Assembly: GCA_964373715.1 (NCBI GenBank)
Contig: CAYJVR010000002.1
Coordinates: 118,521 to 182,520 of the forward strand
DNA: 64,000 nt
From: an uncultured Planctomycetia bacterium
Lineage (GTDB): Bacteria > Omnitrophota > Gorgyraeia > 1-14-0-20-64-10
Reading direction: 5' to 3'
The notes under the pieces are model-generated. The model saw nothing but the letters and a program-made list of their open reading frames with translations, did not search any database and was not told the origin of the DNA. The stretch's first letter is position 1. Each line of letters begins with the position of its first letter. The position numbers and the translations under genes were made by a program. Shown in pieces: positions 24,999-39,404 of this stretch.

Positions 24999-25012
24999 GA
25001 GGGTCTAGAGGG

Positions 25013-26563
25013 ATGCCCACGGCGACAACAGAAAAAAAGGTCCATATTCCGCCGATGGACCGGCACAACCAGGAGCTTGTTTCCAACGTTCACCCGTCCG
25101 ATTGGGTGAATCCGGAACCTTCCGGGCGCTACCATCTGGTTGTGATCGGAGCCGGCTCCGGAGGGATTGTCACGGCTGCCGGCGCCGCAGGTTTGGGGGC
25201 TAGGGTGGCCCTGATCGAGAAGCAGTTTCTGGGAGGGGACTGCCTGAATGCTGGCTGCGTCCCCTCCAAGTGCGTCATTCGGGCTGGCCGCGCTTTTGCC
25301 GACGTCCGGGATGCCGGCCAGTTCGGCATCCGTGTTCACGGCGTCGCCGAGGCGGATTTCCCGGCAGTGATGGAGCGTATGCGCCGGTTGCGCGCCCAGA
25401 TCAGCCATCACGATTCGGCAAAACACCTGCAAAGCCAGGGGATAGACGTTTACCTGGGAGCCGCGAGGTTCAGCGGCCCGGATACCGTGGAGGTGGGCGG
25501 TAAAACCCTCCGCTTTAAGAAGGGGGTGATCGCCACCGGCGCCCGGGCCGCCGATCCGACGATCCCGGGATTGGCGGAAGCAGGCTATCTGACCAACGAA
25601 ACGGTATTCTCTCTCACCGAACGCCCAGGCCACCTGGCGGTGATCGGCGGCGGGCCGATCGGCTGCGAGCTGGCGCAGGCGTTCCAGCGTTTGGGCTGCC
25701 GGGTGGCGATATTTCATACAGGCAATCACATCTTGAACCGGGAGGATGCCGACGCGGCCGGGATTGTCCAGCAGGTTTTCCTGCGGGAAGGAATACAGAT
25801 GGTTTTAAACGCCAAGATCCTCGGCGTTGATAAGAAAGGTTCGGAGAAAGCGATCCGGTTCGAGTCCGGCGGAAGGCCGGGATCTCTGGTATTTGACGAG
25901 ATTTTGGTCGGTGTCGGCCGGACGCCGAACGTCGAGGGGTTGAATCTGGACGCGGCCGGCGTTAAATGCGATAAGAAGAACGGAGTTGTTGTCAGCGACC
26001 GCTTGCAGACCGCAAACCCAAAAATCTACGCTGTCGGCGACGTTTGCATGGCCTATAAATTCACTCATGCCGCCGATGCCGCCGCCCGGATTGCGATAGA
26101 GAACACGCTGTTTCCGAATCTGGGGTTTATCGGCAATAAGAAACTCTCCGGTCTGGTGATGCCCTGGTGCACCTACACCGACCCGGAGATTGCCCATGTC
26201 GGCATGTACGAGAGGGACGCCCAGGGGAAAGGGATTCCGGTCGCAACCTTCGTTAAGAAATTCAGCGCGGTCGACCGGGCCGTCGTCGACGGAGAGCAGG
26301 ACGGCTTTGTGAAGGTTCACGTCCGCAAGGGGACCGACAAGATCCTCGGGGCCACGGTCGTGGCCAGGCACGCCGGGGAGATGATGAACGAGATTTCCTT
26401 GGCGGTCGTCAAAGGGATCGGCTTGGGGGCTCTTTCAGGAGTGATTCATCCTTATCCGACCCAGGCGGAGGCGATCCGGCAGCTTGGTGATGCTTATAAC
26501 GCGACCTTATTGACCCCTCGGGCGAAAAGCCTGCTGGCCGCATGGCTCAAATTCGCACGGTAA
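25013..26563 (+). CDS. Class I pyridine nucleotide-disulfide oxidoreductase (mercuric-reductase-like / dihydrolipoamide-dehydrogenase-like; no NmerA domain, no C-terminal Cys pair)
   Basis: FAD GxGxxG (VVIGAGSGG), redox-active disulfide GGDCLNAGCVPSK, NAD site VIGGGPIGCE, dimerisation-domain HPYPTQAE. Confidence 0.85.
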   Translation: MPTATTEKKVHIPPMDRHNQELVSNVHPSDWVNPEPSGRYHLVVIGAGSGGIVTAAGAAGLGARVALIEKQFLGGDCLNAGCVPSKCVIRAGRAFADVRDAGQFGIRVHGVAEADFPAVMERMRRLRAQISHHDSAKHLQSQGIDVYLGAARFSGPDTVEVGGKTLRFKKGVIATGARAADPTIPGLAEAGYLTNETVFSLTERPGHLAVIGGGPIGCELAQAFQRLGCRVAIFHTGNHILNREDADAAGIVQQVFLREGIQMVLNAKILGVDKKGSEKAIRFESGGRPGSLVFDEILVGVGRTPNVEGLNLDAAGVKCDKKNGVVVSDRLQTANPKIYAVGDVCMAYKFTHAADAAARIAIENTLFPNLGFIGNKKLSGLVMPWCTYTDPEIAHVGMYERDAQGKGIPVATFVKKFSAVDRAVVDGEQDGFVKVHVRKGTDKILGATVVARHAGEMMNEISLAVVKGIGLGALSGVIHPYPTQAEAIRQLGDAYNATLLTPRAKSLLAAWLKFAR

Positions 26564-26589
26564 GACCATCTCATGGAAGAGGATAAGAA

Positions 26590-27237
26590 ATGCGGTTTTT
26601 AAAGAAGGTACTTCTTATCGGATTGATTGCCGTGGTCGCCTATTTCGGCTGGAAATACCGGGCTAGCATCAGCCCGGAGGCGATCCGGGGCTGGATCTCC
26701 CGATTCGGATTGGCCGCCCCTTTTATTTATGTGGCGCTCTACGCGCTCAACACGGTCACCCTCCTGCCGCCGATAGCGATCCTGTCGTTCACGGCGGGTC
26801 TTGCGTTCGGGAAGGTGGTCGGTTTTGCGGCGCTGATGGCCGGAGCGATGACCGGAAGCACGGTCACCTTCTTCATTTCCCGGAAGCTCGGCCGGAGTTT
26901 CGTGGAAAAGCGCCTTCAGGGGAAGTTCAAATCGCTCGATGAAAAGATGGAGAAAAAAGGGTTCGCCACGGTGCTTTTTTTCCGGGCCGTGCCGATTGTT
27001 CCCTATGAGGTGCTGAACTACGTTCCCGGTCTTTCCCGTATCCGGTTCCGAGATTATTTCCTCGGAACTTTCCTTGGATTGATCCCCGGGGTTGGAATTT
27101 CGGTCTTTTTAGGAGATTCTTTAGCGACGATCAAATCAAACCCGAAAAATTTTATCATCGGTTTGGCGGCGATGGGTGTGATAATTGCCGTTCCCATCCT
27201 CTATCTGAAATTCAGGAAGAAACCGGAATCCCCCTGA
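26590..27237 (+). CDS. TVP38/TMEM64 (DedA-related, SNARE-associated) membrane protein
   Basis: Re-entrant helix pattern (LPPIAILSFTAGLAFG...FFRAVPIVPYEVLNYVPG) typical of the family. Confidence 0.75.
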   Translation: MRFLKKVLLIGLIAVVAYFGWKYRASISPEAIRGWISRFGLAAPFIYVALYALNTVTLLPPIAILSFTAGLAFGKVVGFAALMAGAMTGSTVTFFISRKLGRSFVEKRLQGKFKSLDEKMEKKGFATVLFFRAVPIVPYEVLNYVPGLSRIRFRDYFLGTFLGLIPGVGISVFLGDSLATIKSNPKNFIIGLAAMGVIIAVPILYLKFRKKPESP

Positions 27238-27278
27238 TATAATCAAAGAACCTTGATGGTTCAGCTCCGGAGCAGACA

Positions 27279-28130: not shown

Positions 28131-28176
28131 AAATTCACAGTCGGCTGGCTTGTGACCTGAAGGAGGCGGTTTTTCG

Positions 28177-30831
28177 ATGGAATTGACCGAGAGGAGCACC
28201 GTTTCCCTGCCCAAAACCGTCGAGTGGCAGAAAGAGGGCGTTCATATTTTTCTTGATCCTGAGACGCCTCACTGGCTAGCGGCTGATTCCAGAGGGGCGC
28301 AGATCATGAGCTGGGCCAGGGGAGAGATGCCGGTCGGCCGGATCATTCAGCGTTATTCGGAGGCGCACGGGCTCGATACGGCGAAGAGCTGGCTTCACGT
28401 GACCGATTTTCTCTCCGCCCTTCTGCGCTCCGGTTTCGCCCGGACTGAACTGGTCGCCCGGGCTCCTTACCTCGGACGAGCCGCCTACGCCCGCCCGACC
28501 GGCTTAAAGGAGCTCTGGTTCCATACCAACAACATCTGCAATCTCTCTTGCTCCCATTGTCTTGTCAGTTCCGCCCCCTGGGTGCAGGACTGGGGCCTGC
28601 CGACAGACCGGTTCCTTTCTCTCGTGGATGAGGCGATCGAGCTGGGGGTGGACAGATTTTACTTCACCGGCGGCGAGCCGTTCATGCGCAAGGATATCTT
28701 TCATCTGATCCGCACCGTTACCGAGACGAAGGGTTGCGAGCTGATCATCCTGACCAACGCTACGCTGTTGAAAGGGGAGAAAGCGGAAGGGGTCAAAACC
28801 CTCAATCGCCAGAAGGTCCGGTTCCAGGTCAGCGTGGACGGCGCCTCCCCTGAAACCAACGATCCGATTCGAGGCAAGGGGTCGTTCCAGTCGGCGGTGG
28901 AGGGGTTAAGATACCTGGCTTCGCTCGGGTTCGAGACTTCCATCACAACGGCGGTGACCGGCACCAACCTGCAGGACCTGTTGGGGATCACCCGGCTTGC
29001 CCGGGAACTCGGCGTCAAAACCCAGCATTTGATGTGGCTCCATAAGCGGGGACGGATAGTGGGCCGGGAGGAGGTGGCTGCACCTGCTGCTGTGGCTGTC
29101 GCCGCCGGCGGGAACGGTTCCAAATCCCCCGGTTGGGCCGATGGCCATCAGAGAAAAATGAAAGCCTTTTCAGGTCAGACCGAGCTTGGATTTCCGGAAT
29201 CGCAGCAGCTCATTGATGCGGTCCGGAAGGTAAAGGTTTTGGCGGATGAGCTGGGTGTCACGGTGGACAACCTCGAGTCGATCAAATTGAGGGTCAACTC
29301 CCGTCCCGGTGTAAAGTACGACTTAGGAAATGCCTGCTGGGATTCTCTCTGCATCTATTCGGACGGGAAGGTGTATCCTTCCGCGGCGATGGCCAATTTC
29401 AAGCCGCTTATGCTGGGCTCGCTGAAAGAAACCCCCTCTTTAAAAGAGATTTGGCAGCGGTCTCCGGTCGCCGAAGCGTTCCGGCAGGCCTCCGTCAACC
29501 GGAAGGCTCACCTGGCCGATGATCCGCTTCGCTACCTCACAGGCGGTGGAGATTCGGAGCACAGTTTCTTTTTTAACTTAAACGGCGATTCGGAATCCGG
29601 GACGATTGCTCCCGAGAAGATCCTCGACATTCTGTCGGGTCCCGACCCGTACTACCCGGTTTATCAGGCGATGATCCAGGATGCGATCTGGGAAATCGTT
29701 CTGCACAAACGGGACGCGGTCAACCGGAAGTCTGGCTACGATGCCCCGCGCGTCCTGCACGCGATGGGGGACGGAGCGATACACTGCGCTACCGACGATT
29801 TGGCGATCACTGGAGAGATCGATGTGAGGACCCTGCACTCTAACTGTGTTCTCGCGTTCGACGTGGACAAGCCGAGAAAGATGGTGCGGGAGTTTTACGG
29901 CAAGGCGGCCGAAACGCCGCAGGCCGAGCTTTGCTGTCCCACGAAGTTCGACGATTCCGCGATCGCCCACATCCCGAAAGATGTGATCGACCGGTTCTAC
30001 GGCTGCGGTTCTCCGGTCACCTCCGGCAATTTGAAAGAGGGAGAGACCTTTTTGGATCTTGGCTCGGGCGCCGGGATAGACTGCTTCATTGCCGCCAAGC
30101 TCGTCGGCCCGAAGGGCAAGGTGCTCGGGATCGATATGACCGATCAGATGCTGAAGGTAGCTGAAGAAAACAAGCCGATCGTCGCAAAGAATCTCGGCTA
30201 TGACGTGGTGGAGTTCCGAAAAGGATTTCTCGAGACGGTTCCGGCTGACTCAAAAAGCGTTGATCTGATTACCTCCAACTGCGTGATCAATCTTTCGCCG
30301 GACAAACCGAAGGTTTTCTCCGAGATCTGGCGGATCTTGAAGGACAACGGACGGACCGTGATCGCCGATATTGTCTCCGACCGGCCGGTGCCGGCCCATC
30401 TGAAGGTCAATCCCCAGTTGTGGGGCGAGTGCACCGTGGGGGCTCTGACCGAAGAGGAATTCCTGGCCCATCTTCAGGAAGCCGGTTTCTACGGCCTCTC
30501 GGTCTTGAAGAAGGTCTACTGGAAATCGATCGACGGCTACGATTTTTACTCGGTCACGGTGGCCGGCTACAAGTTCGAAAAGACGGCCGGCTGCACGTTC
30601 ATCGGGCAGAGGGCGATTTATCTGGGCCCGATGAAATCGGTCATGGACGAGGAAGGGCACCTGTTCCCCCGGGATGTGGAGGTGGAGGTTTGCACCGACA
30701 CCGCGGCGAAGCTCTCGAAGCCGCCGTACGCCGGCTCGTTCACTGTGATCCAACCGGACGCTCAGCGGATCTCTGTGACCGCGAACATGCAGTCTGCCGA
30801 TAGCGGCTGCGGTCCCGCAGGCTGCTGCTGA
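28177..30831 (+). CDS. Four-part fusion: PqqD-like RRE + radical SAM + SPASM/twitch-like Cys cluster + ArsM-type As(III) SAM methyltransferase, with a C-terminal Cys-rich tail (CGPAGCC)
   Basis: Residues 20-85 are PqqD/RRE-like (IFLDPETPHWLAADSRGAQIMSWARGE...DFLSALLRSG). CNLSCSHC (CxxxCxxC) + FTGGEP. NACWDSLCIYSDGKVYPS (SPASM-like). ArsM hallmarks FYGCGSP, LDLGSGAGIDCF, ITSNCVINLSPDKPKVF and WGECTVGAL. The last 12 aa are SADSGCGPAGCC. Its stop overlaps the arsR start (TGATG). Confidence 0.85.
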   Translation: MELTERSTVSLPKTVEWQKEGVHIFLDPETPHWLAADSRGAQIMSWARGEMPVGRIIQRYSEAHGLDTAKSWLHVTDFLSALLRSGFARTELVARAPYLGRAAYARPTGLKELWFHTNNICNLSCSHCLVSSAPWVQDWGLPTDRFLSLVDEAIELGVDRFYFTGGEPFMRKDIFHLIRTVTETKGCELIILTNATLLKGEKAEGVKTLNRQKVRFQVSVDGASPETNDPIRGKGSFQSAVEGLRYLASLGFETSITTAVTGTNLQDLLGITRLARELGVKTQHLMWLHKRGRIVGREEVAAPAAVAVAAGGNGSKSPGWADGHQRKMKAFSGQTELGFPESQQLIDAVRKVKVLADELGVTVDNLESIKLRVNSRPGVKYDLGNACWDSLCIYSDGKVYPSAAMANFKPLMLGSLKETPSLKEIWQRSPVAEAFRQASVNRKAHLADDPLRYLTGGGDSEHSFFFNLNGDSESGTIAPEKILDILSGPDPYYPVYQAMIQDAIWEIVLHKRDAVNRKSGYDAPRVLHAMGDGAIHCATDDLAITGEIDVRTLHSNCVLAFDVDKPRKMVREFYGKAAETPQAELCCPTKFDDSAIAHIPKDVIDRFYGCGSPVTSGNLKEGETFLDLGSGAGIDCFIAAKLVGPKGKVLGIDMTDQMLKVAEENKPIVAKNLGYDVVEFRKGFLETVPADSKSVDLITSNCVINLSPDKPKVFSEIWRILKDNGRTVIADIVSDRPVPAHLKVNPQLWGECTVGALTEEEFLAHLQEAGFYGLSVLKKVYWKSIDGYDFYSVTVAGYKFEKTAGCTFIGQRAIYLGPMKSVMDEEGHLFPRDVEVEVCTDTAAKLSKPPYAGSFTVIQPDAQRISVTANMQSADSGCGPAGCC

Positions 30832-31142
30832 TGAAGAAAAGCCTCACCCAGCATGAGGCGGCGGAGCTGTTCAAGGCGCTGGCGGATGAGACCCGCTTGA
30901 GGATCTTGCGGATCCTGTTCGAGAGGGAGCACTGCGTGACCGACCTGATGACCGAGCTGAAGCTCGCGCAGTCCTATGTGTCGCACCACTTAAAGATACT
31001 GAAAACCGCCGGGTTGATTGACTCCCGGAGGGAAGGGCATAAGATCTACTACGCCCTTTTGCCGCAGGTGAAGCAGGGATTGTCGGACGCGAAACAGGAG
31101 TCGCTCGACTTAGGTTGCTGCGAAGTGACGTTCAAGGAGTAA
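30831..31142 (+). CDS. arsR: ArsR/SmtB-family metalloregulatory repressor
   Basis: HTH (CVTDLMTELKLAQSYVSHHLKILKTAGL) and a C-terminal Cys pair (LDLGCCEV) typical of As(III)-sensing ArsR variants. Translationally coupled to the upstream gene. Confidence 0.85.
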   Translation: MKKSLTQHEAAELFKALADETRLRILRILFEREHCVTDLMTELKLAQSYVSHHLKILKTAGLIDSRREGHKIYYALLPQVKQGLSDAKQESLDLGCCEVTFKE

Positions 31143-31164
31143 TTTTTTTTGGTTTTAATAATCG

Positions 31165-31180
31165 AACCATGTTGATGGTT
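31165..31180. promoter_or_regulatory. Perfect inverted repeat AACCAT-N4-ATGGTT between arsR and the PiT gene (candidate operator)
   Basis: AACCATGTTGATGGTT lies 20 nt upstream of the PiT RBS, in an AT-rich spacer. Confidence 0.3.
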
Positions 31181-31199
31181 TGATTAAAAAGGAGAAGAG

Positions 31200-32312
31200 A
31201 TGACGGCTCTTTTTCTGATTGCGGCGGTTCTTTTCCTTGCCTACACCAACGGGGCGAACGATAACTTCAAGGGGGTTGCCACACTTTTCGGCAGCAAAAC
31301 GGCCGATTACCGTAAAGCGCTTGCTTGGGCGACCGTCACCACTTTTGCCGGCTGTCTTGCCGCGATCTGGGTTTCTCAGGGGTTGATCAAGGCTTTCAGC
31401 GGAAAGGGGATCGTGCCTGCCGCGATGACGACCGATCCGAGATTTTTGTTGGCCGTCGGTTTTGGCGCTGCCCTAACCGTTTTCTTGGCAACGCTGCTCG
31501 GATTCCCGATTTCAACGACCCATGCGCTGACCGGCGCTCTGGTGGGGGCCGGGTGGATGTTGGTTGGGTCCCAGGTGAATGTGGGGAAATTGGGCCAAAG
31601 TTTCTTCCTGCCTCTGGCGTTAAGCCCTGTTGTATCTTTGGCGATTACAACAGTTTTGTATCCCTCCCTCCGGTTTATCCGGCAGACGGTCGGCGTGACG
31701 AAACAGTTGTGTCTTTGCATCGGGCCGGTCCGTGAGCCGGTTCTTGTCCGGACTGACGGGACCATGGTGATGAAAGCGACCGGGTCCGAGCTGTCGGTCG
31801 GGGAACTGAAGAACTGCGTTGAGCAGTACCAAGGGGTCCTTCTCGGCGTTGATTTCCAGCGGGTGATCGATTTTTTTCATTACCTTTCGGCCGGGGCCGT
31901 CGGTTTTGCGCGCGGGTTGAACGACGCGCCCAAGATCGTGGCCATCCTCATCACCGCCCAAGCTCTGCGCATTGGGACGAGGGAAGCCCTTCTGCTTGTC
32001 GCGGTTGCGATGGCCGCTGGCGGCATTCTGAGCGCCAAGAAGGTGGCGCAGACGATGAGCCAGCGGATCACAGCGATGAACCACGGCCAGGGATTCACAG
32101 CGAATTTGGTCACCAGCGTCCTTGTCTCGATGGCTTCCCGCTTTGCGTTGCCGGTTTCAACGACGCATGTTTCCTGCGGCGCCCTTTTCGGTATCGGTTT
32201 GGTCAACCGGAATGCCAACGTCGGTGTCATCCGGAACATCCTGCTTTCCTGGCTGATCACCCTTCCTGTCGCGGCGGGTGTGGCGGCCTCTCTCTATTGG
32301 CTACAGCGGTAG
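31200..32312 (+). CDS. PiT-family inorganic phosphate (and arsenate) transporter
   Basis: Duplicated GANDxxK/N signature (NGANDNFKG; ARGLNDAPKIVA), about 10 TM helices, and a large central loop. Confidence 0.85.
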   Translation: MTALFLIAAVLFLAYTNGANDNFKGVATLFGSKTADYRKALAWATVTTFAGCLAAIWVSQGLIKAFSGKGIVPAAMTTDPRFLLAVGFGAALTVFLATLLGFPISTTHALTGALVGAGWMLVGSQVNVGKLGQSFFLPLALSPVVSLAITTVLYPSLRFIRQTVGVTKQLCLCIGPVREPVLVRTDGTMVMKATGSELSVGELKNCVEQYQGVLLGVDFQRVIDFFHYLSAGAVGFARGLNDAPKIVAILITAQALRIGTREALLLVAVAMAAGGILSAKKVAQTMSQRITAMNHGQGFTANLVTSVLVSMASRFALPVSTTHVSCGALFGIGLVNRNANVGVIRNILLSWLITLPVAAGVAASLYWLQR

Positions 32313-32381
32313 GCGAGTACGAGCGGAGAAATTCCAGCGCCTCTTTTTGCCCTCATTTATGATTTCCGTCATATAAATGGT

Positions 32382-32410
32382 TTGACTTCAATCTTATAAT
32401 TGGTCATTAT
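32382..32410 (+). promoter_or_regulatory. Promoter-like element upstream of the porin gene (TTGACT-N17-CATTAT)
   Basis: AT-rich island in an otherwise GC-rich window; -35 TTGACT at 32382-32387 and a -10-like CATTAT at 32405-32410. Confidence 0.3.
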
Positions 32411-32430
32411 TCAACCTATTGAGGTAAATC

Positions 32431-33723
32431 ATGAAAAATATGCGTGGCCGTATGGCGTTGTGGATGGCTGGGGTCTTCTTTGTATCTTATGCTGTTCCCG
32501 TGCAGGCGTCGGAGATGGACATCCTGCTGAGGAAGTTGGTGGAGAAGAAGGTTTTGACCGAGCAGGAGGCGCAGGAAGTCCGTGGCGAGGTGGAGCAGGA
32601 AGTTGCCCGGTCCGCCAAATTCGAGAAGGAAGACGTCAAGGAAACCGTCAAGAAGATACCCGGAGGGACCTGGCTCGAGAAAACGAAATGGGCCGGCGAC
32701 CTGCGCCTGCGGCACGAGAGCCAACTGCGGGAGCCCGCGGCCGACCGGCATCGGGAACGATTCCGCTTGAGGTTCGGTTTCACGACGAAACCGTGGGACC
32801 AGATGGAGGTGGGTGTCCGGCTGGCTACCGGCGCCAGCGGTGATCCGGTTTCCACCAACCAGAGTTTTACCGGCACTTTCGACAAAAAAGCGGTTTTCAT
32901 TGACCGGGCGTACGCGAAATACACGCCGTGGCCCTGGTTCAATCTTGTTGGCGGCAAGATGGAGATACCGTTCGACACTGCCACGGAGATTTTTTGGGAC
33001 GGGGACCTGACGCCGGAAGGGGTGGCCGTTCAGTTCAAGACGCCGGAACCCCTGCCGTTTTTTAAAGAAACTTTTCCGACCAAACTGTTTGCCAACGTCG
33101 GGGCGTTTCAGATTTCGGAGCTCAGCGACGACGCCGGGGATCCGGCAATGTTTGGTTTCCAGGTTGGGAAAGAGACAGGGTTGCCCCGCGGGTTGGTGTG
33201 GACCTCTTCCATCGGTTATTATGACATCACCGCGGTCAGGGGAAAGAGGACTTCTGACATTACTCAGGTGAGCGCTCCCAGCGGCAACTCGACCGATGGT
33301 CCGGTCGCAGCGCCGGTCTACCGGTACGATTTCAACCCGCTCGATATCCAGGGGAAGCTGCTGATTCCGGATATCCTCGGCCAGCAGGTGGTGCTGATCG
33401 GGGATTTTGTCCATAACCCGGTTGCGGAGGATGATAACGGCGCCTGGCAGGCGGGCATCAAGGTGGGGAAGGTGACCGAGAAGATGGGGAGCTGGGAATC
33501 TTCCTACTACTACAAAAGAGTTGAACCGGACGCGATTTTCGGGGCGATCACCGATTCCGATTTTGGCGCCGGCGGATCGAACCATCACGGGCACCGAGTC
33601 GGCCTGCGGGTCGGTTTGAGCAAATGGACTGAGGCCGGCATCACTTATTACCGCACCGATGAGATCGAAGGGGCCCAGAACAAGGTGGATACTCTGCAGG
33701 TGGACGCTTCTGTAAAATACTGA
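32431..33723 (+). CDS. Putative outer-membrane porin (beta-barrel with an N-terminal coiled-coil segment)
   Basis: Signal peptide, charged coiled-coil N-terminus, alternating hydrophobic beta-strand pattern, C-terminal aromatic (…DASVKY). AT-rich promoter-like region upstream. Confidence 0.6.
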   Translation: MKNMRGRMALWMAGVFFVSYAVPVQASEMDILLRKLVEKKVLTEQEAQEVRGEVEQEVARSAKFEKEDVKETVKKIPGGTWLEKTKWAGDLRLRHESQLREPAADRHRERFRLRFGFTTKPWDQMEVGVRLATGASGDPVSTNQSFTGTFDKKAVFIDRAYAKYTPWPWFNLVGGKMEIPFDTATEIFWDGDLTPEGVAVQFKTPEPLPFFKETFPTKLFANVGAFQISELSDDAGDPAMFGFQVGKETGLPRGLVWTSSIGYYDITAVRGKRTSDITQVSAPSGNSTDGPVAAPVYRYDFNPLDIQGKLLIPDILGQQVVLIGDFVHNPVAEDDNGAWQAGIKVGKVTEKMGSWESSYYYKRVEPDAIFGAITDSDFGAGGSNHHGHRVGLRVGLSKWTEAGITYYRTDEIEGAQNKVDTLQVDASVKY

Positions 33724-33799: not shown

Positions 33800-34855
33800 A
33801 TGCTGATGCGCCGCGGATTGTGGATAACAGTTATTGCGCTCGCTGGGTTTATCTCAATCGTGAGCCCCGCCGCCGCTTCTTCGAAGCAGGAAACGGTCAT
33901 TGAAGCGGGCGCGTTCTCGAACGGTTTGCCGGCCGGTTTTCCGGAGGGGTGGGAGCTTGTGCCGGCTAAAACCTCGGGGAAACGAACCCTTTACCAGCTT
34001 GTCCGTGAAGGGGAAATCGTTGTCTTAAAAGCGGTCAGCCAAGCAGCCTCCTCCGGCCTGATGCGGGTGGTCTCTTTAAATCCCCGGGATTACCCGATTA
34101 TCCAGTGGCGCTGGAAAGTGGAGGATCTCCTCCGCAGAAGTGATATTTTCCGTAAAAATGGAGACGATTTTTCTGCCCGGCTCTTTCTTTCTTTTGAAAC
34201 AGATCCCTCCAAGGCGGGATGGAGGGAAAGAATTTACATCCAGGCCGGCCGGCTTCTTTACGGGGATTACCCTCTGGCGGAAGGGCTCAACTATGTCTGG
34301 GCCAGCCGCGAGCCTGAGGGAACTATGACTTCCAGTCCGTACACCGAGAGGCTCAAAACAGTTGTTATCGAGAGCGGCAGCGGCAAGCTGAACACGTGGG
34401 TGGTGGAGGAACGGAATTTTTATGAGGACTACAAAAAGGCTTTCGGGCAGGAGCCGCCCGCTCTTTACAGCGTGGCGGTGATGACGGATACCGATAATAC
34501 CGGCGGGACGGCGGTGGCTTATTACGGGGATATCCTCTTCAGTAAAGAGCCGTTGAAAAGCGTGATGGAGGGGCAGCCGAGATATGGTACGATCACCGAG
34601 AGTTCTTCACTTCCAGGCATTCAGGGGACCGCCATCATCTCAAAAAATATTGACCAGCGAGGCCGCCGCGTTAGAGCGCTGGGGGGGATTGCCCTCCTGG
34701 CGGCGGCCCTCTTGTTGGTGTTGGGAGTCCCTTCCTGGCCGGTATGGAAGATTATCATCGTGATCAGCTTTTCGTGCGGCGGGTTGTTCATGCTTTTCGA
34801 GGCCTTCAGCGGGTGGTGTGTGCTGCGCGCCTGCGGCATAAAAACCCCCGTATAG
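33800..34855 (+). CDS. Secreted DUF3047-like domain protein with a C-terminal YgaP/DUF2892-like two-helix membrane anchor
   Basis: Signal peptide. C-terminal LGGIALLAAALLLVLG...SFSCGGLFMLFEAFSGWCVLRACG matches the Gx-W-C...R-x-CG pattern of DUF2892. The DUF3047 assignment is from memory. Confidence 0.55.
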   Translation: MLMRRGLWITVIALAGFISIVSPAAASSKQETVIEAGAFSNGLPAGFPEGWELVPAKTSGKRTLYQLVREGEIVVLKAVSQAASSGLMRVVSLNPRDYPIIQWRWKVEDLLRRSDIFRKNGDDFSARLFLSFETDPSKAGWRERIYIQAGRLLYGDYPLAEGLNYVWASREPEGTMTSSPYTERLKTVVIESGSGKLNTWVVEERNFYEDYKKAFGQEPPALYSVAVMTDTDNTGGTAVAYYGDILFSKEPLKSVMEGQPRYGTITESSSLPGIQGTAIISKNIDQRGRRVRALGGIALLAAALLLVLGVPSWPVWKIIIVISFSCGGLFMLFEAFSGWCVLRACGIKTPV

Positions 34856-34869
34856 GAAACCTTAGATTA

Positions 34870-36393
34870 GTGAGAGTTGTCATTATCGGCGCGGGCATCG
34901 GCGGGTTGGCTTGCGGGATCCGTCTGGCGTCGCGCGGTTATCAGGTCACGATCCTTGAAAAGAACGAGATAGCCGGCGGGCGATGCAACCGCTATCAGGA
35001 AAAGGGTTTTACGTTCGACACCGGGCCGACCCTTTTCATGATGACCGACACCCTTGAAGAGCTTTTTCGGTATGCCGGCCGAAAGATGTCCGATTACGTG
35101 ACCCTGTGCCGGATTGATCCCGCCTACAGAATCACCTATTCCGATGGCCAAACTCTTGAGTTCACCGATAGGATGAAGATTCTGGAGGAGGAGATCCGGA
35201 AATTCGGCCCCCGTGAGCTTCAGGGATTCTACCGGTACGCGGCCCAGAACGGCGAATCGTACAGGCACCTGCGGGCGAAGTTCATCGACAAACCGCTGGA
35301 GGTTCCCTCCCAGTGGGCTGATTTAGAGTCGCTTGGCCTGCTGGCCCGGCTGAAGCCTTGGAGAGATGTCCTTTCGGTGGCCAAACGGCACTTTGATTCT
35401 CCCCACCTGCGGATGGCGTTCAGCTTTCACACGCTCTATCTGGGGATTTCCCCGCAGGCAGCCCCGTCCATGTACACCATGCTTCCTTATATTGATCTCG
35501 TGCAGGGGGTCCATTACCCTCTCGGTGGGATGTCCCAGATTCCGGCGGCTTTAACGCGCCTCTTCGGCGAGCTCGGAGGAGAGATACGGTATGGCGTCGA
35601 GGTCGAGCAGATCGTCACCAGTTCGGGCCGTGTCAGGGAGGTGCTTCTGCACGATGAGAGAACCGTCCCTGCCGACGTCGTCGTTTCGAACGTTGATATG
35701 CCGGTCACGATGAACCGTTTCCTGAAGCACCAGCCGATGTCCGGCCACAAGCGGCGCGTCCTCAAGATGAAAAGGGGCTGTTCCGCCGCCGTTTTTCTCT
35801 TGGGGCTCGACAAGGCCTATCCGCAGTTGTCCCACCATAACCTCTATTTGCCGATGGTTTTTGAGAGATCTCTTCATGAGTTGTTTGATCTGGGGCAAAT
35901 CCCTCAAGAACCGGCCTTTTATCTGTGTGCGCCTGCAAGAACGGATGCGGCGATGGCACCAAAGGGGTCCGAGAGCGTCATGATTTTAGTACCTTGTCCG
36001 AATGAGGAGGTGCTGCCGGATGTCGGCGCGCAGATGCCCCTGTTACGTGAGAAACTTTTGAACCTTTTGGACCGAACGTTTTTGCCGGATATCCGGCGCC
36101 ATATCATTGTCGATAAAACTCTGCCTCCCTCCTGGTATGGGCGGCGCTACGCGTTGGCCGGTTCGGCCACATTCGGTTTCTTGCCGACATTTTTCCAGTC
36201 AGCGATGTTCCGGCCCCAGAGGCGGTCTCCGGACGTCCGGGGCCTTTACTATGCCGGGGCCAGCACCCATCCGGGCAACGGAATCCCGATCGTTTTAATC
36301 GCCGGCCGATTTGCCGCTGAGGCTATTGTTGAAGATTTTGGTTCGGTGCGCCATGTCCTCCCTTCTGTCCGAAACGTTACGCCAATCGGTTGA
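34870..36393 (+). CDS. Phytoene-desaturase-family (CrtI/CrtN/CrtP-like) FAD-dependent oxidoreductase, copy 1; likely GTG start at 34870
   Basis: VVIIGAGIGGLACGIRLA...ILEKNEIAGGR dinucleotide-binding fold; C-terminal GAGTHPG-like motif (YYAGASTHPGNGIP). Confidence 0.8.
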   Translation: MRVVIIGAGIGGLACGIRLASRGYQVTILEKNEIAGGRCNRYQEKGFTFDTGPTLFMMTDTLEELFRYAGRKMSDYVTLCRIDPAYRITYSDGQTLEFTDRMKILEEEIRKFGPRELQGFYRYAAQNGESYRHLRAKFIDKPLEVPSQWADLESLGLLARLKPWRDVLSVAKRHFDSPHLRMAFSFHTLYLGISPQAAPSMYTMLPYIDLVQGVHYPLGGMSQIPAALTRLFGELGGEIRYGVEVEQIVTSSGRVREVLLHDERTVPADVVVSNVDMPVTMNRFLKHQPMSGHKRRVLKMKRGCSAAVFLLGLDKAYPQLSHHNLYLPMVFERSLHELFDLGQIPQEPAFYLCAPARTDAAMAPKGSESVMILVPCPNEEVLPDVGAQMPLLREKLLNLLDRTFLPDIRRHIIVDKTLPPSWYGRRYALAGSATFGFLPTFFQSAMFRPQRRSPDVRGLYYAGASTHPGNGIPIVLIAGRFAAEAIVEDFGSVRHVLPSVRNVTPIG

Positions 36394-37819
36394 CCTCAAC
36401 GGCGGTTCGGCCGCGCAGGCTGTTTCCGGCGCCCGGGCCGCTTTTGAAAGATGGAGATCCCTGTCTATCCGCCAGCGTGCGGCCTATCTGTTCACACTGC
36501 GCCGCCGGATCGCCGCCCAAGCGGAATCTCTCTCTCAGCTAATTGCCGAAGAGAACGGGAAGCCGGTCCTCGAAGCGTTAGGGGCGGAGGTTTTCGGGTC
36601 TCTGGAAGCTCTCGGCGTCCTTTTGTCGGAGGGGGAGAAATGGCTTGCTCCCGAAAATATCCGGATGACTTTTTTTGACCGGTTCCGTGGAGTGCGCCGA
36701 AGACAGCTCTTTTATGAACCGTTCGGTGTTATCGGGATCATAGGCACCTGGAATTACCCTCTTTTGATCAACATGAGGCAGATTACCAGCGCTTTATTTG
36801 CCGGCAACACCGTTGTCTGGAAACCGTCGGAACTTTCGCTGAATCTCGCCGTTCGTCTGCAGTCTCTTTTCGAGGAAGCCGGTTTCCCCGAGGGGGTCTT
36901 CACCCTCCTTCCCGGGGATAGCCGGGCCGGAGAGGCCCTTATTAAGGCGGGATGCGATAAGGTCATTTTTACCGGCCATGGGAAGACCGGCCGCAGGATT
37001 CTTGCTGCGTTGGCTGAACAGGCGGTGCCCTCGGTTATGGAGCTCTCCGGGGCGGACGCCGCTTTGGTTTGCGAGGATGCCGATCTTCCACTTGCCGTGA
37101 AAGGCCTGGCCTGGGGCGCGATGACCAACGCGGGGCAGTCCTGTGTCGCCAGCCGGCGCATTATCGTTCATCAGACTGTTTACCCTGTTTTCGCGGATGC
37201 CTTTCTCAAGATTGTCCGCGCCTTAAAGATCGGCGACCCGAAGAATCCGGACACGGAGGTTGGGCCGCTGAGGACGCAGGCGCAGGCGGATCTTTTGGAG
37301 GAGTTGATCCGGGATGCCGTCGGTAAAGGGGCCGTTGTATTGGCGGGCGGACGCCGATTGAACAATCCCGGAGGTGTTTTTTTTGAGCCGGCGGTTTTGA
37401 CAGGGGTAAACGATTCCATGACCATTGTCCGGGAAGAATTCTTCGGTCCGGTGGTTCTGTTATTTTCCGCCCGGGATGAGGGGGAGATGGTTGCGTTTGC
37501 CAACAACTCTCCGTACGGATTGGGCGCCAGCGTTTGGACCAGGGATCGCCGCCGCGGCCAGCGCCTCGCTTCCCGGTTGGAGTCGGGGATTGTTTGGGTC
37601 AATGAAGCCCTTTTTTCGGCCGGAGACGGTCGTCTTCCTTTCGGCGGCGTCAAAGGGTCTGGTTTCGGGCGGGTGGGCGGAGCGGAGGGTTTAAGGCAGA
37701 TGGCCCGCGTGAAATGCGTTGAGGAGGCGTCGCCTCAGGGGTTCCGTCCCCACTATTTCCCTTATGGCGCTGAGAAATATAAGCAGCTTTCCAAAATCAT
37801 CCGCTGGAGGCATCGGTGA
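36353..37819 (+). CDS. NAD(P)-dependent aldehyde dehydrogenase
   Basis: GTWNYPL, VVWKPSE, catalytic ELSGADAALV (Glu), GQSCVA (Cys) and EEFFGPV motifs. Confidence 0.85.
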   Translation: MSSLLSETLRQSVDLNGGSAAQAVSGARAAFERWRSLSIRQRAAYLFTLRRRIAAQAESLSQLIAEENGKPVLEALGAEVFGSLEALGVLLSEGEKWLAPENIRMTFFDRFRGVRRRQLFYEPFGVIGIIGTWNYPLLINMRQITSALFAGNTVVWKPSELSLNLAVRLQSLFEEAGFPEGVFTLLPGDSRAGEALIKAGCDKVIFTGHGKTGRRILAALAEQAVPSVMELSGADAALVCEDADLPLAVKGLAWGAMTNAGQSCVASRRIIVHQTVYPVFADAFLKIVRALKIGDPKNPDTEVGPLRTQAQADLLEELIRDAVGKGAVVLAGGRRLNNPGGVFFEPAVLTGVNDSMTIVREEFFGPVVLLFSARDEGEMVAFANNSPYGLGASVWTRDRRRGQRLASRLESGIVWVNEALFSAGDGRLPFGGVKGSGFGRVGGAEGLRQMARVKCVEEASPQGFRPHYFPYGAEKYKQLSKIIRWRHR

Positions 37820-37868
37820 CCCCACCACCTGTTTTCTCGGTGATGGGCAGGTTAAAGGAGGTGGTGGG

Positions 37869-39398: not shown

Positions 39399-39404
39399 AA
39401 AACG

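What the first reader, a model, noticed from the sequence alone, without database searches (positions are those of the whole stretch)
30831..32312. arsR translationally coupled to the rSAM-ArsM gene, followed by a PiT transporter behind a perfect palindrome
The ArsR homolog has a C-terminal Cys pair (LDLGCCEV) of the type used by some ArsRs for As(III) sensing. Its start overlaps the upstream stop by 1 nt, so the regulator is the second gene of the unit rather than a divergent repressor. AACCATGTTGATGGTT (31165-31180) sits between arsR and the PiT gene and could be its operator. PiT transporters take up arsenate as a phosphate analog. Coupling an uptake system to an As-methylating/rSAM enzyme suggests deliberate arsenic acquisition for biosynthesis rather than detoxification; typical ars detox operons pair ArsR with efflux (ArsB/Acr3) and ArsC, none of which is here.
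Basis: partly seen in the sequence, partly recalled or inferred. Interest (0 to 1): 0.55.

Follow-up and report, generated by a model that had tools for sequence, protein, structure and literature searches.

The report
Arsenic-type repressor gating a phosphate/arsenate importer
A small ArsR-type repressor sits mid-operon between an arsenic-methylating enzyme and a phosphate/arsenate uptake transporter, with recognisable ArsR operator boxes at the operon promoter and in front of the transporter. This suggests that the bacterium switches on oxyanion import, not arsenic efflux, when it senses arsenic.

Summary
arsR (30831-31142) overlaps the rSAM-ArsM stop (TGATG), carries Cys35 plus a C-terminal Cys96-Cys97 pair, and is followed by a PiT gene (31200-32312).

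The "perfect palindrome" is the core of a larger 12-4-12 inverted repeat (31159-31186). Its layout, ATCGA-N6-TTGAT-N3-TTGAT, matches the published ArsR operator class (ATCAA-N6-TTGAT). The element is conserved in 9 independent loci.

A second, perfect ArsR box (27242-27257) lies directly after the only TGnTATAAT in the window, upstream of DUF547-fusion-arsR.

Every locus found for this ArsR subfamily (GCC pair invariant) has a phosphate-type importer downstream: PiT, or PstSCAB in its place. A Nitrospira locus reads arsM-arsR-arsS-PiT. The rSAM-ArsM fusion has a phosphate-type importer next to it in 15 of 33 loci, across several phyla.

The window cluster also encodes NCBIfam "arsenosugar biosynthesis" glycosyltransferases. 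No ArsB, Acr3 or ArsC was found in the 64 kb.

Most likely this is a trivalent-arsenical-responsive switch for Pi/As(V) import embedded in an organoarsenical or lipid cluster. Sequence cannot decide whether the import serves arsenic acquisition or phosphate supply under arsenic stress. It is a new variant of a known kind.

The parts
27235..27243 (+). Extended -10 promoter-like element TGATATAAT in the VTT-DUF547 spacer. Its TGA is the VTT stop codon.
   Evidence: It is the only TGnTATAAT on either strand of the 64-kb window. TGGTATAAT lies at the same place in the 79%-identical locus L081. It is a consensus match only; the transcription start is not known.
27242..27265 (.). O1, the promoter-proximal ArsR box ATCAAAGAACCTTGAT (27242-27257) plus GGTTCAGC. 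It overlaps the end of the -10 element and the expected transcription start.
   Evidence: It is the only perfect ATCAA-N6-TTGAT in the window. It is the second-best hit of the operator PWM in 128 kb (18.7 bits; P~0.05 per window). The homologous spacer of L081 holds the best non-training hit of all 102 loci (24.9 bits; P~0.003). The ArsR consensus is taken from PMC9137774.
27279..28130 (+). DUF547 gene, first gene after O1.
   Evidence: PF04784 E=2.9e-28. It recurs next to the fusion in L010, L013, L014, L023, L081 and L089.
28177..30831 (+). Fusion of a radical SAM/SPASM domain with an ArsM-like methyltransferase (884 aa).
   Evidence: PF04055, PF13186 and PF13847 match. NF008823 'arsenite methyltransferase' scores 227.7 bits against a cutoff of 263. 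The CxxxCxxC motif, all four ArsM cysteines (CC586/587, C610, C702, C752) and the C-terminal CC are invariant in 16 homologs. The family has at least 602 members.
30829..30833 (+). TGATG stop/start overlap between the fusion and arsR.
   Evidence: Read directly from the sequence. Similar tight junctions occur in L090, L091, L081 and L098.
30831..31142 (+). arsR, an ArsR/SmtB repressor of the 'Cys35 + GCC' subfamily.
   Evidence: Family matches. Cys96/Cys97 are invariant in all 119 full-length homologs and Cys35 is present in 115 of 120. In the model (pLDDT 84) Cys35 sits at the N-cap of helix 3 and the GCC lies in a flexible tail after a short helix 5.
31143..31152 (+). T8GG run directly after the arsR stop codon.
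   Evidence: It is conserved in 8 of 9 loci, with a fixed distance to the operator in nearly all. No terminator hairpin precedes it (z-scores about 0). Its function is unresolved; it could be promoter -35/UP-like DNA or a bending tract.
31159..31186 (.). O2, a composite ArsR operator. It is a 12-4-12 inverted repeat with core ATCGA-ACCATG-TTGAT-GGT-TTGAT (31161-31184).
   Evidence: P~0.0009. It is conserved in 9 loci before PiT or PstS. 90% of cells are paired, and two positions covary. A leave-one-out PWM scores it at 34.6 bits. Its layout matches the EMSA-verified P. denitrificans operator CTCAA-N6-TTGAG-N3-TTGAT.
31191..31194 (+). Shine-Dalgarno GGAG of the PiT gene, 4 nt after O2 and 5 nt before the ATG.
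   Evidence: Read from the sequence. AAAGGAG is conserved in the aligned loci.
31200..32312 (+). PiT-family (PHO4) transporter of 370 aa, of the 'GxNDxxK' subtype.
   Evidence: PF01384 E=1e-62 over the full profile. It scores far below the PitA and CysP cutoffs. It matches the solved TmPiT 6L85, but carries GANDNFKG and GLNDAPKI where TmPiT has GANDVAN. The same motifs occur in all 14 ars-linked PiTs from four phyla.
32431..33723 (+). Porin_5 outer-membrane porin.
   Evidence: PF16930 E=4.5e-57. It follows PiT or Pst in L081, L090, L091 and L094.
25013..27237 (+). FAD pyridine-nucleotide-disulfide oxidoreductase (25013-26563) and a VTT/DedA-like membrane protein (26590-27237). Both are conserved upstream partners of the fusion.
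   Evidence: NF004991 scores 814.7 bits against a cutoff of 620, and PF09335 matches. The synteny is shown.
33800..43395 (+). Co-directional downstream genes: DUF3047/YgaP-TM, a CrtI-family gene, an aldehyde dehydrogenase, a second CrtI-family gene, DUF3419, a PS-decarboxylase-like gene, and a 645-aa glycosyltransferase (41458-43395).
   Evidence: TIGR04283 scores 444.8 bits (cutoff 182; two stretches) and TIGR04282 scores 200.9 bits (cutoff 134). NCBIfam names both 'arsenosugar biosynthesis glycosyltransferase'.

Best explanation
arsR encodes a dimeric ArsR/SmtB repressor of a distinct subfamily (Cys35 at the start of helix 3, plus an invariant Gly-Cys-Cys in the C-terminal tail). It is translated from the same mRNA as the rSAM-ArsM enzyme.

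Without its ligand it occupies two ArsR boxes of the ATCAA-N6-TTGAT class. O1 overlaps the extended -10 and start region of the promoter that drives DUF547-fusion-arsR, giving autoregulation. O2 is a composite double box 4 nt upstream of the PiT ribosome-binding site. There it blocks either initiation from a spacer promoter or read-through from upstream.

Binding of a trivalent arsenical to the cysteines releases the repressor. The ligand would be As(III), or the methylated As(III) made by the neighbouring enzyme. Release turns on the PiT permease and, with it, the Porin_5 porin, which together import phosphate-like oxyanions, arsenate included.

The module is thus an arsenic-inducible oxyanion import switch built into an organoarsenical (arsenosugar/arsenolipid-type) and membrane-lipid gene cluster that has no efflux pump. 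My preferred reading is that the imported arsenate feeds the pathway while the imported phosphate serves the cell.

Shown: gene identities, the junctions, conservation of the arsR-operator-importer module, and the operator's match to a verified operator class.
Inferred: repressor polarity, the ligand, transport substrate and direction, and the purpose.
For: Operator:
- The O2 inverted repeat has P~0.0009 and is conserved in 9 loci.
- Across 1.49 Mb of fetched loci the PWM picks only loci encoding ArsR orthologs at least 66% identical to the window's.
- Its layout equals the P. denitrificans operator, which ArsR binds in EMSA and anisotropy assays and leaves on addition of arsenite (PMC9137774).
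- O1 is the only perfect consensus box in the window and abuts the only TGnTATAAT.
- L081, which lacks O2, has its single strong box at the same promoter.
- The same boxes flank canonical arsR-arsM genes in L098 and L068.

Sensor:
- The GCC pair is invariant in 119 of 119 full-length homologs and Cys35 is present in 115 of 120.
- Cys35 aligns with Cys32 of R773 ArsR. Known sites use C-terminal vicinal cysteines (AfArsR) or a Cys32-equivalent plus C-terminal cysteines (ArArsR). The two-Cys SpArsR is MAs(III)-selective (PMC11868830).

Target and direction:
- Every locus found for this ArsR subfamily has PiT or PstSCAB downstream.
- PstC and PstA score above the NCBIfam cutoffs.
- A Pst ABC importer replaces PiT at the same position in L091.

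Link to arsenic chemistry:
- A phosphate-type importer lies next to the fusion in 15 of 33 loci from several phyla.
- Nitrospira has arsM-arsR-ArsS(TIGR04167, 450 bits)-PiT.
- In L068 the fusion-PiT pair abuts a canonical arsR-arsM-acr3-arsD-arsA-arsC operon.
- The window holds arsenosugar glycosyltransferase families and no efflux or arsC gene.

Precedents:
- ArsR controls pstS1/phoU in an As(III)-dependent manner in A. tumefaciens (PMC3834237).
- arsR and pitA lie beside arsQML in B. gladioli (PMC8552651).
Against: - Nothing was measured, so ligand, polarity and substrate are all inferred.
- Overall sequence and fold similarity places the protein among generic ArsR/SmtB members (CadC-like, CzrA, HlyU, SqrR). 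It is no closer to AfArsR or CgArsR than to those.
- The protein lacks every complete published three-Cys As(III) triad.
- P. denitrificans ArsR is also released by the thiol oxidant diamide, so a redox signal is possible.
- arsR-operator-PstSCAB modules occur with no ArsM within 6-7 kb (L095-97, L100, L101). The regulator's core job may therefore be unrelated to organoarsenical synthesis.
- L081 has no O2. L091 shows no O1 in the sequence available.
- The dyad would also form a 12-bp RNA hairpin.
- This PiT subtype is divergent (GxNDxxK), so its substrate is not certain.
- No arsenate reductase, which would be needed to feed As(V) to ArsM, was seen in the window.
- The more distant Nitrospira ArsR has no recognisable copy of the box near its genes.
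Confidence: 0.55

Rival explanations
1. The switch is the same, but its purpose is phosphate supply. Arsenic, sensed by ArsR, induces a dedicated phosphate importer (PiT or Pst, plus the porin) so that the cell keeps acquiring phosphate while arsenate competes. The ArsM-type enzyme detoxifies what leaks in. Arsenic is not sought.
For: - Standalone arsR-operator-PstSCAB modules have no ArsM nearby. In L101 a PhoD phosphatase lies 5 kb away.
- pstS1 and phoU are regulated by ArsR in an As(III)-dependent manner in A. tumefaciens. pst1 is induced by arsenic in H. arsenicoxydans. PstS proteins discriminate phosphate from arsenate 500-850-fold (PMC3834237).
- The window cluster also carries DUF3419 and PS-decarboxylase-like lipid genes, consistent with membrane remodelling. 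To my knowledge DUF3419 is the betaine-lipid synthase BtaA family, which would point to a phosphorus-stress response; this link was not tested here.
Against: - The E. coli Pit system is regarded as a low-affinity phosphate/arsenate transporter (PMC8552651), which makes a PiT a poor choice for excluding arsenate.
- PiT is tightly coupled to the As-methyltransferase gene even where no ArsR exists (gaps of 1-5 nt in L083, L085, L092).
- Nitrospira keeps a separate canonical arsR-arsM detoxification pair right beside arsM-arsR-arsS-PiT.
Confidence: 0.3
2. The ArsR-family protein does not sense arsenic. Its cysteines form a thiol switch (oxidant, persulfide or another soft metal) that controls phosphate importers. 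Its position next to ArsM-type genes is secondary.
For: - The closest solved relatives by sequence and fold include the thiol-based sensors HlyU and SqrR and the metal sensors CzrA and CadC.
- No complete published As(III) triad is present.
- P. denitrificans ArsR is released by diamide as well as by arsenite.
- Some modules lack arsenic genes nearby.
Against: - The operator belongs to the ATCAA-N6-TTGAT class described for arsenic-responsive ArsRs. The same boxes flank canonical arsR-arsM genes in L098 and L068.
- The regulator gene overlaps, or lies within a few nucleotides of, the 3' end of an As-methyltransferase gene in four independent contexts (window/L090/L091, L081, L098).
- Vicinal C-terminal cysteines are the hallmark of the AfArsR and SpArsR sites.
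Confidence: 0.12
3. The dyad acts as RNA, not DNA. A 12-bp intercistronic stem-loop just upstream of the PiT ribosome-binding site would set mRNA stability, processing or translation of the transporter relative to arsR.
For: - On the + strand the single DNA mismatch becomes a G-U pair, giving a perfect 12-bp stem with a GUUG loop. The 86-nt region folds with z=-3.8.
- 90% of cells are paired across 9 loci, and two positions change on both sides.
Against: - The arms are conserved in sequence (ATCAA/TTGAT nearly invariant), not only in pairing.
- 9 of 90 cells are unpaired, and both compensatory changes come from one lineage (L100, L101).
- O1 and the L081 site share the sequence but lie at a promoter, and O1 cannot form the long stem.
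- The motif equals a DNA operator verified by EMSA.
- No U-tract follows the stem, so it is not a terminator.
Confidence: 0.05

Closest known systems
Paracoccus denitrificans ArsR1/ArsR2 and their ars operator (PMC9137774)
   Same: - The ArsR is an ArsR/SmtB protein with C-terminal cysteines.
- The operator lies just before a start codon.
- The layout is pentamer-N6-pentamer-N3-pentamer (CTCAA-CATATC-TTGAG-AGG-TTGAT there, ATCGA-ACCATG-TTGAT-GGT-TTGAT here), that is, two overlapping ATCAA-N6-TTGAT boxes.
- In P. denitrificans the repressor is released by arsenite.
   Different: - There the operator precedes a detoxification operon (arsH and others), and arsR is not mid-operon.
- Here one box sits at the operon promoter and the composite box sits downstream of arsR, in front of an importer.
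- The window protein is shorter (103 aa against 119-120) and lacks the third cysteine of the AfArsR triad.
- Binding has not been tested here.
ArsR-dependent, As(III)-induced expression of pstS1/phoU in Agrobacterium tumefaciens 5A, and pst/pho genes in arsenic islands (Kang et al. 2012, as cited in PMC3834237)
   Same: An ArsR repressor controls a phosphate uptake system in response to arsenite. Arsenic and phosphate-transport genes are physically linked.
   Different: - Those islands centre on arsenite oxidase (aio) and ars efflux genes in Proteobacteria.
- Here the partner is an ArsM-type methyltransferase/rSAM enzyme with glycosyltransferase and lipid genes, without efflux genes, in uncultured Omnitrophota-like bacteria.
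- The importer can be PiT as well as Pst.
Arsinothricin cluster arsQML of Burkholderia gladioli GSRB05 (PMC8552651)
   Same: - A radical SAM enzyme and an ArsM methyltransferase act together to build an organoarsenical.
- The operon is As(III)-inducible, presumably through ArsR.
- arsR and pitA lie in the same ars gene cluster.
   Different: - ArsL and ArsM are separate proteins of other subfamilies. The window's MT domain scores 214 bits against a cutoff of 500 for AST-ArsM.
- The dedicated transporter there, ArsQ, is an exporter of the product.
- pitA there is not shown to be coupled to the biosynthetic genes.
Arsenosugar pathway ArsM + ArsS of Synechocystis (cited in PMC8552651) and the NCBIfam 'arsenosugar biosynthesis' families (TIGR04167, TIGR04282, TIGR04283, NF038099)
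   Same: - An ArsM-type methyltransferase is paired with a radical SAM enzyme.
- TIGR04283 and TIGR04282 glycosyltransferase domains are present in the window above their cutoffs.
- The Nitrospira locus found here has a genuine ArsS with the same ArsR subfamily and PiT subtype.
   Different: - The window's rSAM domain is a SPASM-type domain, not ArsS (59.7 bits against a cutoff of 300), and it is fused to the methyltransferase.
- A PiT and an ArsR inside the unit have, as far as my searches went, not been described for arsenosugar genes.
SpArsR of Shewanella putrefaciens 200 and AfArsR of Acidithiobacillus ferrooxidans (as summarised in PMC11868830)
   Same: A vicinal Cys-Cys near the C-terminus acts as the arsenical-binding element. 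With only two ligands (SpArsR) the sensor is selective for methylarsenite, which would fit a regulator encoded next to an ArsM.
   Different: - AfArsR has a third cysteine six residues later. The window protein ends 6 residues after the pair and instead conserves Cys35 (the R773 Cys32 position) and, in most relatives, Cys73.
- Sequence similarity to AfArsR is weak (E=1.7e-5).

Membership tests
ArsR/SmtB metalloregulators | Winged helix-turn-helix (HTH_5) domain with the a1-a2-a3-aR-wing-a5 fold | tested here: met
   PF01022 E=6.9e-19. NF033788 scores 98 bits against a cutoff of 55. The AlphaFold model (pLDDT 84) has that order of elements. Foldseek top hits are CzrA, HlyU, SqrR and SmtB at probability 1.00.
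Arsenic-responsive ArsR, type 1 (R773) | Cys32-Val-Cys34-Asp-Leu-Cys37 triad in helix 3 | tested here: not met
   Only the first cysteine is present (H-C35-V-T-D-L-M).
Arsenic-responsive ArsR, type 2 (AfArsR) and the two-Cys variant (SpArsR) | Vicinal Cys-Cys at the C-terminal end of helix 5, plus a third Cys about 6 residues later (AfArsR only) | tested here: inconclusive
   The vicinal pair Cys96-Cys97 is present and invariant in 119 of 119 homologs. There is no third downstream Cys, since the protein ends CCEVTFKE. This pattern equals the SpArsR two-Cys pattern as described in PMC11868830. No residue-level alignment to AfArsR or SpArsR was obtained.
Arsenic-responsive ArsR, type 3 (CgArsR) | Cys15-Cys16 in the N-terminal arm plus Cys55 | tested here: not met
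   The window protein has no N-terminal cysteines.
Arsenic-responsive ArsR (any type) | Operator of the ATCAA-N6-TTGAT class near the regulated promoter or start codon | tested here: met
   O1 at 27242-27257 is a perfect match, the only one in the window. O2 is ATCGA-N6-TTGAT plus an overlapping second box, as in P. denitrificans.
Arsenic-responsive ArsR (any type) | DNA binding relieved by As(III) or MAs(III) | not testable with these tools
   This needs EMSA, footprinting or a reporter assay.
PiT / PHO4 inorganic phosphate transporters (TC 2.A.20) | Full-length PHO4 domain with two homologous halves | tested here: met
   PF01384 E=1e-62, covering profile positions 1-350 of 350. Both halves align to TmPiT 6L85.
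PiT / PHO4 inorganic phosphate transporters (TC 2.A.20) | Signature GANDVAN in both halves, as in the solved TmPiT | tested here: inconclusive
   G-x-N-D and the STTH motifs are kept, but the Asn of 'VAN' is Lys in both halves (GANDNFKG, GLNDAPKI). The protein falls below the curated cutoffs for PitA (69 against 800) and the sulfate permease CysP (72 against 400).
PiT / PHO4 inorganic phosphate transporters (TC 2.A.20) | Uptake of phosphate (and arsenate) | not testable with these tools
   Indirect evidence only: a PstSCAB importer replaces PiT at the same position in L091.
Arsenosugar biosynthesis gene set (NCBIfam) | ArsS radical SAM protein (TIGR04167) | tested here: not met
   The window rSAM domain scores 59.7 bits against a cutoff of 300. 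A true ArsS (450.7 bits) occurs in the related Nitrospira module L098.
Arsenosugar biosynthesis gene set (NCBIfam) | ArsM-type As(III) methyltransferase | tested here: inconclusive
   All four catalytic cysteines are conserved. The scores are below cutoff: NF008823 227.7 against 263, and NF038099 156 against 400.
Arsenosugar biosynthesis gene set (NCBIfam) | TIGR04283 and TIGR04282 glycosyltransferases | tested here: met
   For window 41458-43395, TIGR04283 scores 444.8 bits (cutoff 182; two copies) and TIGR04282 scores 200.9 bits (cutoff 134). The family names rest on gene co-occurrence, not on assays of these proteins, as far as I know.
Canonical ars detoxification operon (arsRBC / arsR-acr3-arsC) | Arsenite efflux pump (ArsB or Acr3) and arsenate reductase ArsC in the unit | tested here: not met
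   No such Pfam domain occurs in any ORF scanned across the 64 kb. The rest of the genome was not available.

The most novel reading that the evidence does not exclude
Arsenic is treated as a resource. This ArsR subfamily senses the methylated As(III) product of the adjacent enzyme and, in a feed-forward loop, opens a dedicated outer-membrane porin plus PiT (or Pst) route for arsenate. The cell thereby builds arsenic-containing sugars or lipids as phosphorus-sparing membrane components. On this reading the 'GxNDxxK' PiT subtype is an arsenate-preferring permease.
Probability: 0.22. Interest if true: 0.85.

Novelty: new variant of a known kind. Interest (0 to 1): 0.58.

Why it matters
Arsenic regulons are normally read as detoxification: the repressor releases, and efflux and reduction genes switch on. 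Here a recognisable ArsR with ArsR boxes controls importers of phosphate-like oxyanions, and in many genomes it sits inside or beside ArsM/radical-SAM genes for complex organoarsenicals.

This gives a concrete, testable handle on an old question in arsenic biology. Are arsenosugars and arsenolipids by-products of arsenate leaking in through phosphate transporters, or products of a regulated acquisition pathway?

It also defines three things that can be tested directly:
- an ArsR subfamily (Cys35 + GCC) that could serve as a biosensor scaffold, possibly methylarsenite-selective;
- a 24-bp operator;
- a divergent PiT subtype whose arsenate/phosphate selectivity can be measured.

Tried and rejected
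- Intrinsic terminator after arsR: the conserved T-run is not preceded by a stable or conserved hairpin (z between -1.7 and +1.4 in six loci). The dyad itself is not followed by a T-run.
- Sigma-70 scan of 22400-35000: 3 matches against 4.4 expected, so uninformative. I could not assign a convincing -10/-35 pair inside the arsR-PiT spacer, although the TTG-to-TTGAT distance is fixed at 17 nt in nearly all of the loci.
- Copies of the dyad elsewhere in the window: none beyond O1.
- The operator motif in the Nitrospira locus (ArsR 49% identical): not found near arsM-arsR-arsS-PiT.
- Assigning the effector from overall similarity: sequence and fold searches return generic ArsR/SmtB proteins and do not discriminate.
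Omnitrophota relatives had to be reached through exact-protein look-ups.
- Literature searches for an rSAM-ArsM fusion, or for a PiT inside arsenosugar genes, found nothing. The SpArsR and AfArsR papers are not held.
- Organism name: the cluster look-up gave no names.

Full report
**1. What is at the coordinates**

The + strand from about 23.3 kb to 43.4 kb is one co-directional gene array. In order it encodes:
- a transglutaminase-like protein and a small secreted protein;
- an FAD pyridine-nucleotide-disulfide oxidoreductase (25013-26563);
- a VTT/DedA-like membrane protein (26590-27237);
- DUF547 (27279-28130);
- an 884-aa fusion of a radical SAM/SPASM domain with an ArsM-like methyltransferase (28177-30831);
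- ArsR (30831-31142);
- a PiT/PHO4 transporter (31200-32312);
- a Porin_5 porin (32431-33723);
- DUF3047;
- two CrtI-family oxidoreductases flanking an aldehyde dehydrogenase;
- DUF3419;
- a phosphatidylserine-decarboxylase-like protein;
- a 645-aa glycosyltransferase (41458-43395).

No ArsB, Acr3, ArsC, ArsA, ArsD, ArsP or ArsH domain was detected in any ORF of the window. The window does encode an aa3-type cytochrome oxidase. The organism can therefore meet oxic conditions, where arsenate is the prevailing arsenic species (the speciation point is my own knowledge).

**2. The palindrome**

The 16-mer is not a perfect palindrome. It has 6-bp arms around GTTG. Such a repeat turns up in 14% of shuffles of the 57-nt spacer.

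It is, however, the core of a 12-4-12 inverted repeat, TAATCGAACCAT/ATGGTTTGATTA (31159-31186), with 11 of 12 positions complementary. That appears in 0.09% of shuffles. It occurs once in the window.

**3. Related loci**

The fusion protein belongs to a large uncharacterised family:
- at least 602 homologs were found, many more than 50% identical over the full length, from Omnitrophica, Nitrospirae, Acidobacteria, Gemmatimonadota and others;
- the rSAM CxxxCxxC motif, all four ArsM cysteines and the terminal CC are invariant in a 16-sequence alignment.

Context look-ups and a tblastn survey of all fetched loci gave four results.

(a) Of the 33 distinct fusion loci examined, counting the window, 15 have a phosphate-type importer next to the fusion. 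This holds for all nine loci of the Omnitrophota-like clade. In five of those nine (the window, L081, L090, L091, L094) arsR lies between the fusion and the importer. In L083, L085 and L092 PiT follows the fusion directly, with gaps of 1-5 nt and no ArsR, so ArsR is an insertion into an older fusion-PiT pair.

(b) In L091 the PiT is replaced, at the same position after ArsR and before the porin, by PstSCAB. PstC scores 239.8 bits (cutoff 196) and PstA 251.2 bits (cutoff 193). PstS and PstB score just under their cutoffs. An ABC system with a binding protein imports, so the role required at this position is uptake of a phosphate-like oxyanion.

(c) In L068 the fusion-PiT pair is convergent with a canonical arsR-arsM-acr3-arsD-arsA-arsC operon.

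(d) Other recurrent neighbours are the FAD oxidoreductase, VTT, DUF547, DUF3047 and TIGR04283-like glycosyltransferases.

**4. The regulator subfamily**

A profile search with four orthologs returned 120 homologs.
- The Gly-Cys-Cys pair is present in all 119 full-length sequences.
- Cys35, in 'CV(S/T)DL', is present in 115 of 120.
- A fourth cysteine at position 73 is present in most, although the window protein has Tyr there.

The structure model (pLDDT 84) puts Cys35 at the N-cap of helix 3. The HMMER alignment to CadC-like proteins places it at the first Cys of their CVC motif, which is the position of Cys32 in R773 ArsR. The GCC lies in a low-confidence tail after a short helix 5.

By overall sequence and fold the protein is a generic ArsR/SmtB member. 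It fits none of the published three-Cys triads completely. Its pattern is closest to two described cases (PMC11868830):
- the two-Cys, methylarsenite-selective SpArsR;
- ArArsR, which combines the Cys32-equivalent with C-terminal cysteines.

Every locus found for this subfamily has a phosphate-type importer downstream:
- PiT in the window, L081, L090 and L094;
- PstSCAB in L091/L093, L095/L096, L097, L100 and L101.

The last five loci have no fusion or ArsM within 6-7 kb.

A more distant member (49% identity) in Nitrospira lies in arsM-arsR-arsS-PiT. There ArsS passes the curated cutoff (450.7 bits against 300). The MT is 45% identical to the fusion's MT domain. The PiT is 36% identical to the window's. 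A separate canonical arsR(CVCEL)-arsM pair lies alongside.

**5. The operator**

The spacer element is conserved after the arsR stop codon in nine loci: a T-run, then ATCAAnnnAT-nTTG-ATnnTTTGAT, then AAAGGAG and the start codon of PiT or PstS. Across them:
- 90% of the 90 pair cells are complementary;
- two positions change on both sides (CC:GG to GA:TC in L100 and L101);
- the outer ATCAA/TTGAT pentamers are nearly invariant.

A PWM built from these sites, with the window's own site left out, scores the window's site at 34.6 bits. Its next best hit in 128 kb is 27242-27265 at 18.7 bits, which is reached in about 5% of simulated windows.

That second site begins inside the only TGnTATAAT of the whole window (27235-27243). 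It lies in the 41-nt spacer upstream of DUF547-fusion-arsR.

L081 is the one arsR locus that lacks the spacer element; there arsR and PiT are only 14 nt apart. Its single strong PWM hit (24.9 bits; P~0.003; the next best is 5.7 bits) lies in the homologous spacer, directly after TGGTATAAT. Over all 102 sequences (1.49 Mb), L081 is the best non-training hit.

The literature settles what this motif is. The ArsR core operator consensus is ATCAA-N6-TTGAT. P. denitrificans ArsR1/2 bind (C/A)TCAACATATCTTGAGAGGTTGATTCG, which is two overlapping boxes just before the ATG, in EMSA and anisotropy assays. They are released by arsenite and also by diamide (PMC9137774).
- The window's O2, ATCGA-ACCATG-TTGAT-GGT-TTGAT, has the same pentamer-N6-pentamer-N3-pentamer layout.
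- O1, ATCAAAGAACCTTGAT, is a perfect consensus box and the only perfect one in the window.
- The same boxes flank the canonical arsR2 gene in L098 (ATCAACAATTCTTGAT and ATCAACATTTCTTGAT).
- One also sits between arsR and arsM in L068 (ATCAAAAAATATTGAT on the gene strand).

**6. Mechanism**

The best-supported model is a two-operator ArsR circuit. O1 autoregulates DUF547-fusion-arsR at an extended -10 promoter. O2 gates PiT, and probably the porin, either by occluding a spacer promoter or as a roadblock to read-through.

ArsR/SmtB proteins lose DNA affinity on ligand binding, so the ligand would induce the importer. The cysteine pattern, the operator class and the fusion to As-methyltransferase genes point to a trivalent arsenical. 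Which one cannot be decided from sequence. It could be As(III), coordinated by Cys35 plus Cys96/97. It could equally be a methylated product needing only the vicinal pair.

An RNA hairpin reading is possible (a perfect 12-bp stem on the + strand). It is disfavoured for three reasons:
- the pentamers are conserved in sequence;
- pairs are broken in several loci;
- O1 shares the sequence but not the stem.

**7. Purpose of the import**

Two readings survive.

Acquisition for biosynthesis is favoured by:
- the tight fusion-PiT coupling across phyla;
- the ArsS-PiT module in Nitrospira beside a separate detoxification pair;
- the absence of efflux genes;
- the arsenosugar glycosyltransferase families;
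- the reputation of Pit-type carriers as arsenate routes (PMC8552651).

Phosphate supply under arsenic stress is favoured by:
- the standalone arsR-operator-Pst modules;
- a PhoD near L101;
- the precedent of As(III)/ArsR-dependent pstS1 and phoU expression, and of arsenate-discriminating PstS proteins (PMC3834237).

The two merge if arsenolipids are phosphorus-sparing lipids, as proposed in the literature. The window's DUF3419 and PS-decarboxylase-like genes fit a membrane-remodelling cluster. To my knowledge DUF3419 is the family of the betaine-lipid synthase BtaA; that link was not tested here.

All 14 ars-linked PiTs share Lys in place of the signature Asn in both repeats (GxNDxxK). They form a divergent subtype of unknown selectivity. 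Measuring that selectivity is the decisive experiment.

**8. Verdict**

The anatomy is real, and richer than reported. The operator idea is strongly supported, and the element belongs to a known operator class. The uptake direction is supported. 'Deliberate arsenic acquisition' remains one of two live readings.

Relative to what is known (ArsR boxes, ArsR-controlled pst genes, ArsM plus rSAM pathways), this is a new variant. It combines a dedicated ArsR subfamily that controls phosphate/arsenate importers, a mid-operon regulator with two operators, and a setting within arsenosugar-type clusters of uncultured bacteria.

Noticed in passing
window 28177-30831; alignment A1: The rSAM/SPASM + ArsM-like fusion is itself a large uncharacterised family: at least 602 homologs, with full-length identity above 50% across at least five phyla. 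It has an invariant C-terminal domain (C806, C839, C878, CC883/884), and some members carry a PqqD-like hit in the N-terminal domain. No paper in the library describes such a fusion.
   Followed up: partly
window 41458-43395: A single 645-aa ORF combines two TIGR04283 copies and one TIGR04282 copy ('arsenosugar biosynthesis glycosyltransferases'), both above their curated cutoffs. Shorter GT2+DUF2064 versions follow PiT directly in L083, L085 and L092.
   Followed up: partly
window 39405-41461: DUF3419 (to my knowledge the family of the betaine-lipid synthase BtaA) and a phosphatidylserine-decarboxylase-like gene overlap by 4 nt and lie in the same array. They are preceded by two CrtI-family oxidoreductases and an aldehyde dehydrogenase. 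This hints at a lipid head-group pathway.
   Followed up: no
window 25013-27237 and L081, L083, L085, L089, L092: An FAD disulfide-oxidoreductase (MerA/glutathione-reductase-like, NF004991) and a VTT/DedA-like membrane protein form a conserved pair immediately upstream of the fusion. DsrE is added in some loci. A possible role in arsenate or thiol reduction was not examined.
   Followed up: no
window 7739-15089, minus strand: An aa3-type cytochrome c oxidase set (COX1, COX2, COX3, COX4, CtaA/CtaB fusion) plus a multi-haem cytochrome c. This implies aerobic or microaerobic respiration in a genome whose closest relatives are labelled Candidatus Omnitrophica.
   Followed up: no
window 31200-32312 and 13 other loci: All ars-linked PiTs carry GxNDxxK in both repeats instead of the GANDVAN of the solved TmPiT. 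Among the 120 closest homologs, 113 of the 119 that could be scored have exactly GANDNFKG.
   Followed up: partly
window 30249-30264: CTCAAAAAGCGTTGAT, a one-mismatch ArsR box (with the same CTCAA variant as in P. denitrificans), lies inside the fusion coding region, about 570 nt upstream of arsR. Its count is compatible with chance (3 matches found, 1.8 expected).
   Followed up: no
window 27135-27158, minus strand: The third-best operator-PWM hit (16 bits; ATCAAACCCGAAAAATTTTATCAT) lies about 100 bp upstream of O1, inside the 3' end of the VTT gene. It could be an auxiliary site or chance.
   Followed up: no
L098/L099 1-3200: Next to the Nitrospira arsM-arsR-arsS-PiT module lies a BufA1 / MbnB-TglH (DUF692) / HvfC / DoxX set, that is, a bufferin-type RiPP cluster.
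   Followed up: no
L083/L084 13800-16700: A MerR-MerT-like-CopZ-like metal cluster lies just downstream of the fusion-PiT-GT-fatty acid hydroxylase array in the CG11 Omnitrophica MAG.
   Followed up: no
window 52997-53029 and 53281-53313: Two GC-rich inverted repeats (12/12 and 11/12) lie in the 52.7-53.6 kb gap, which holds only two short ORFs without family matches. They look like terminator stems and were not examined.
   Followed up: no
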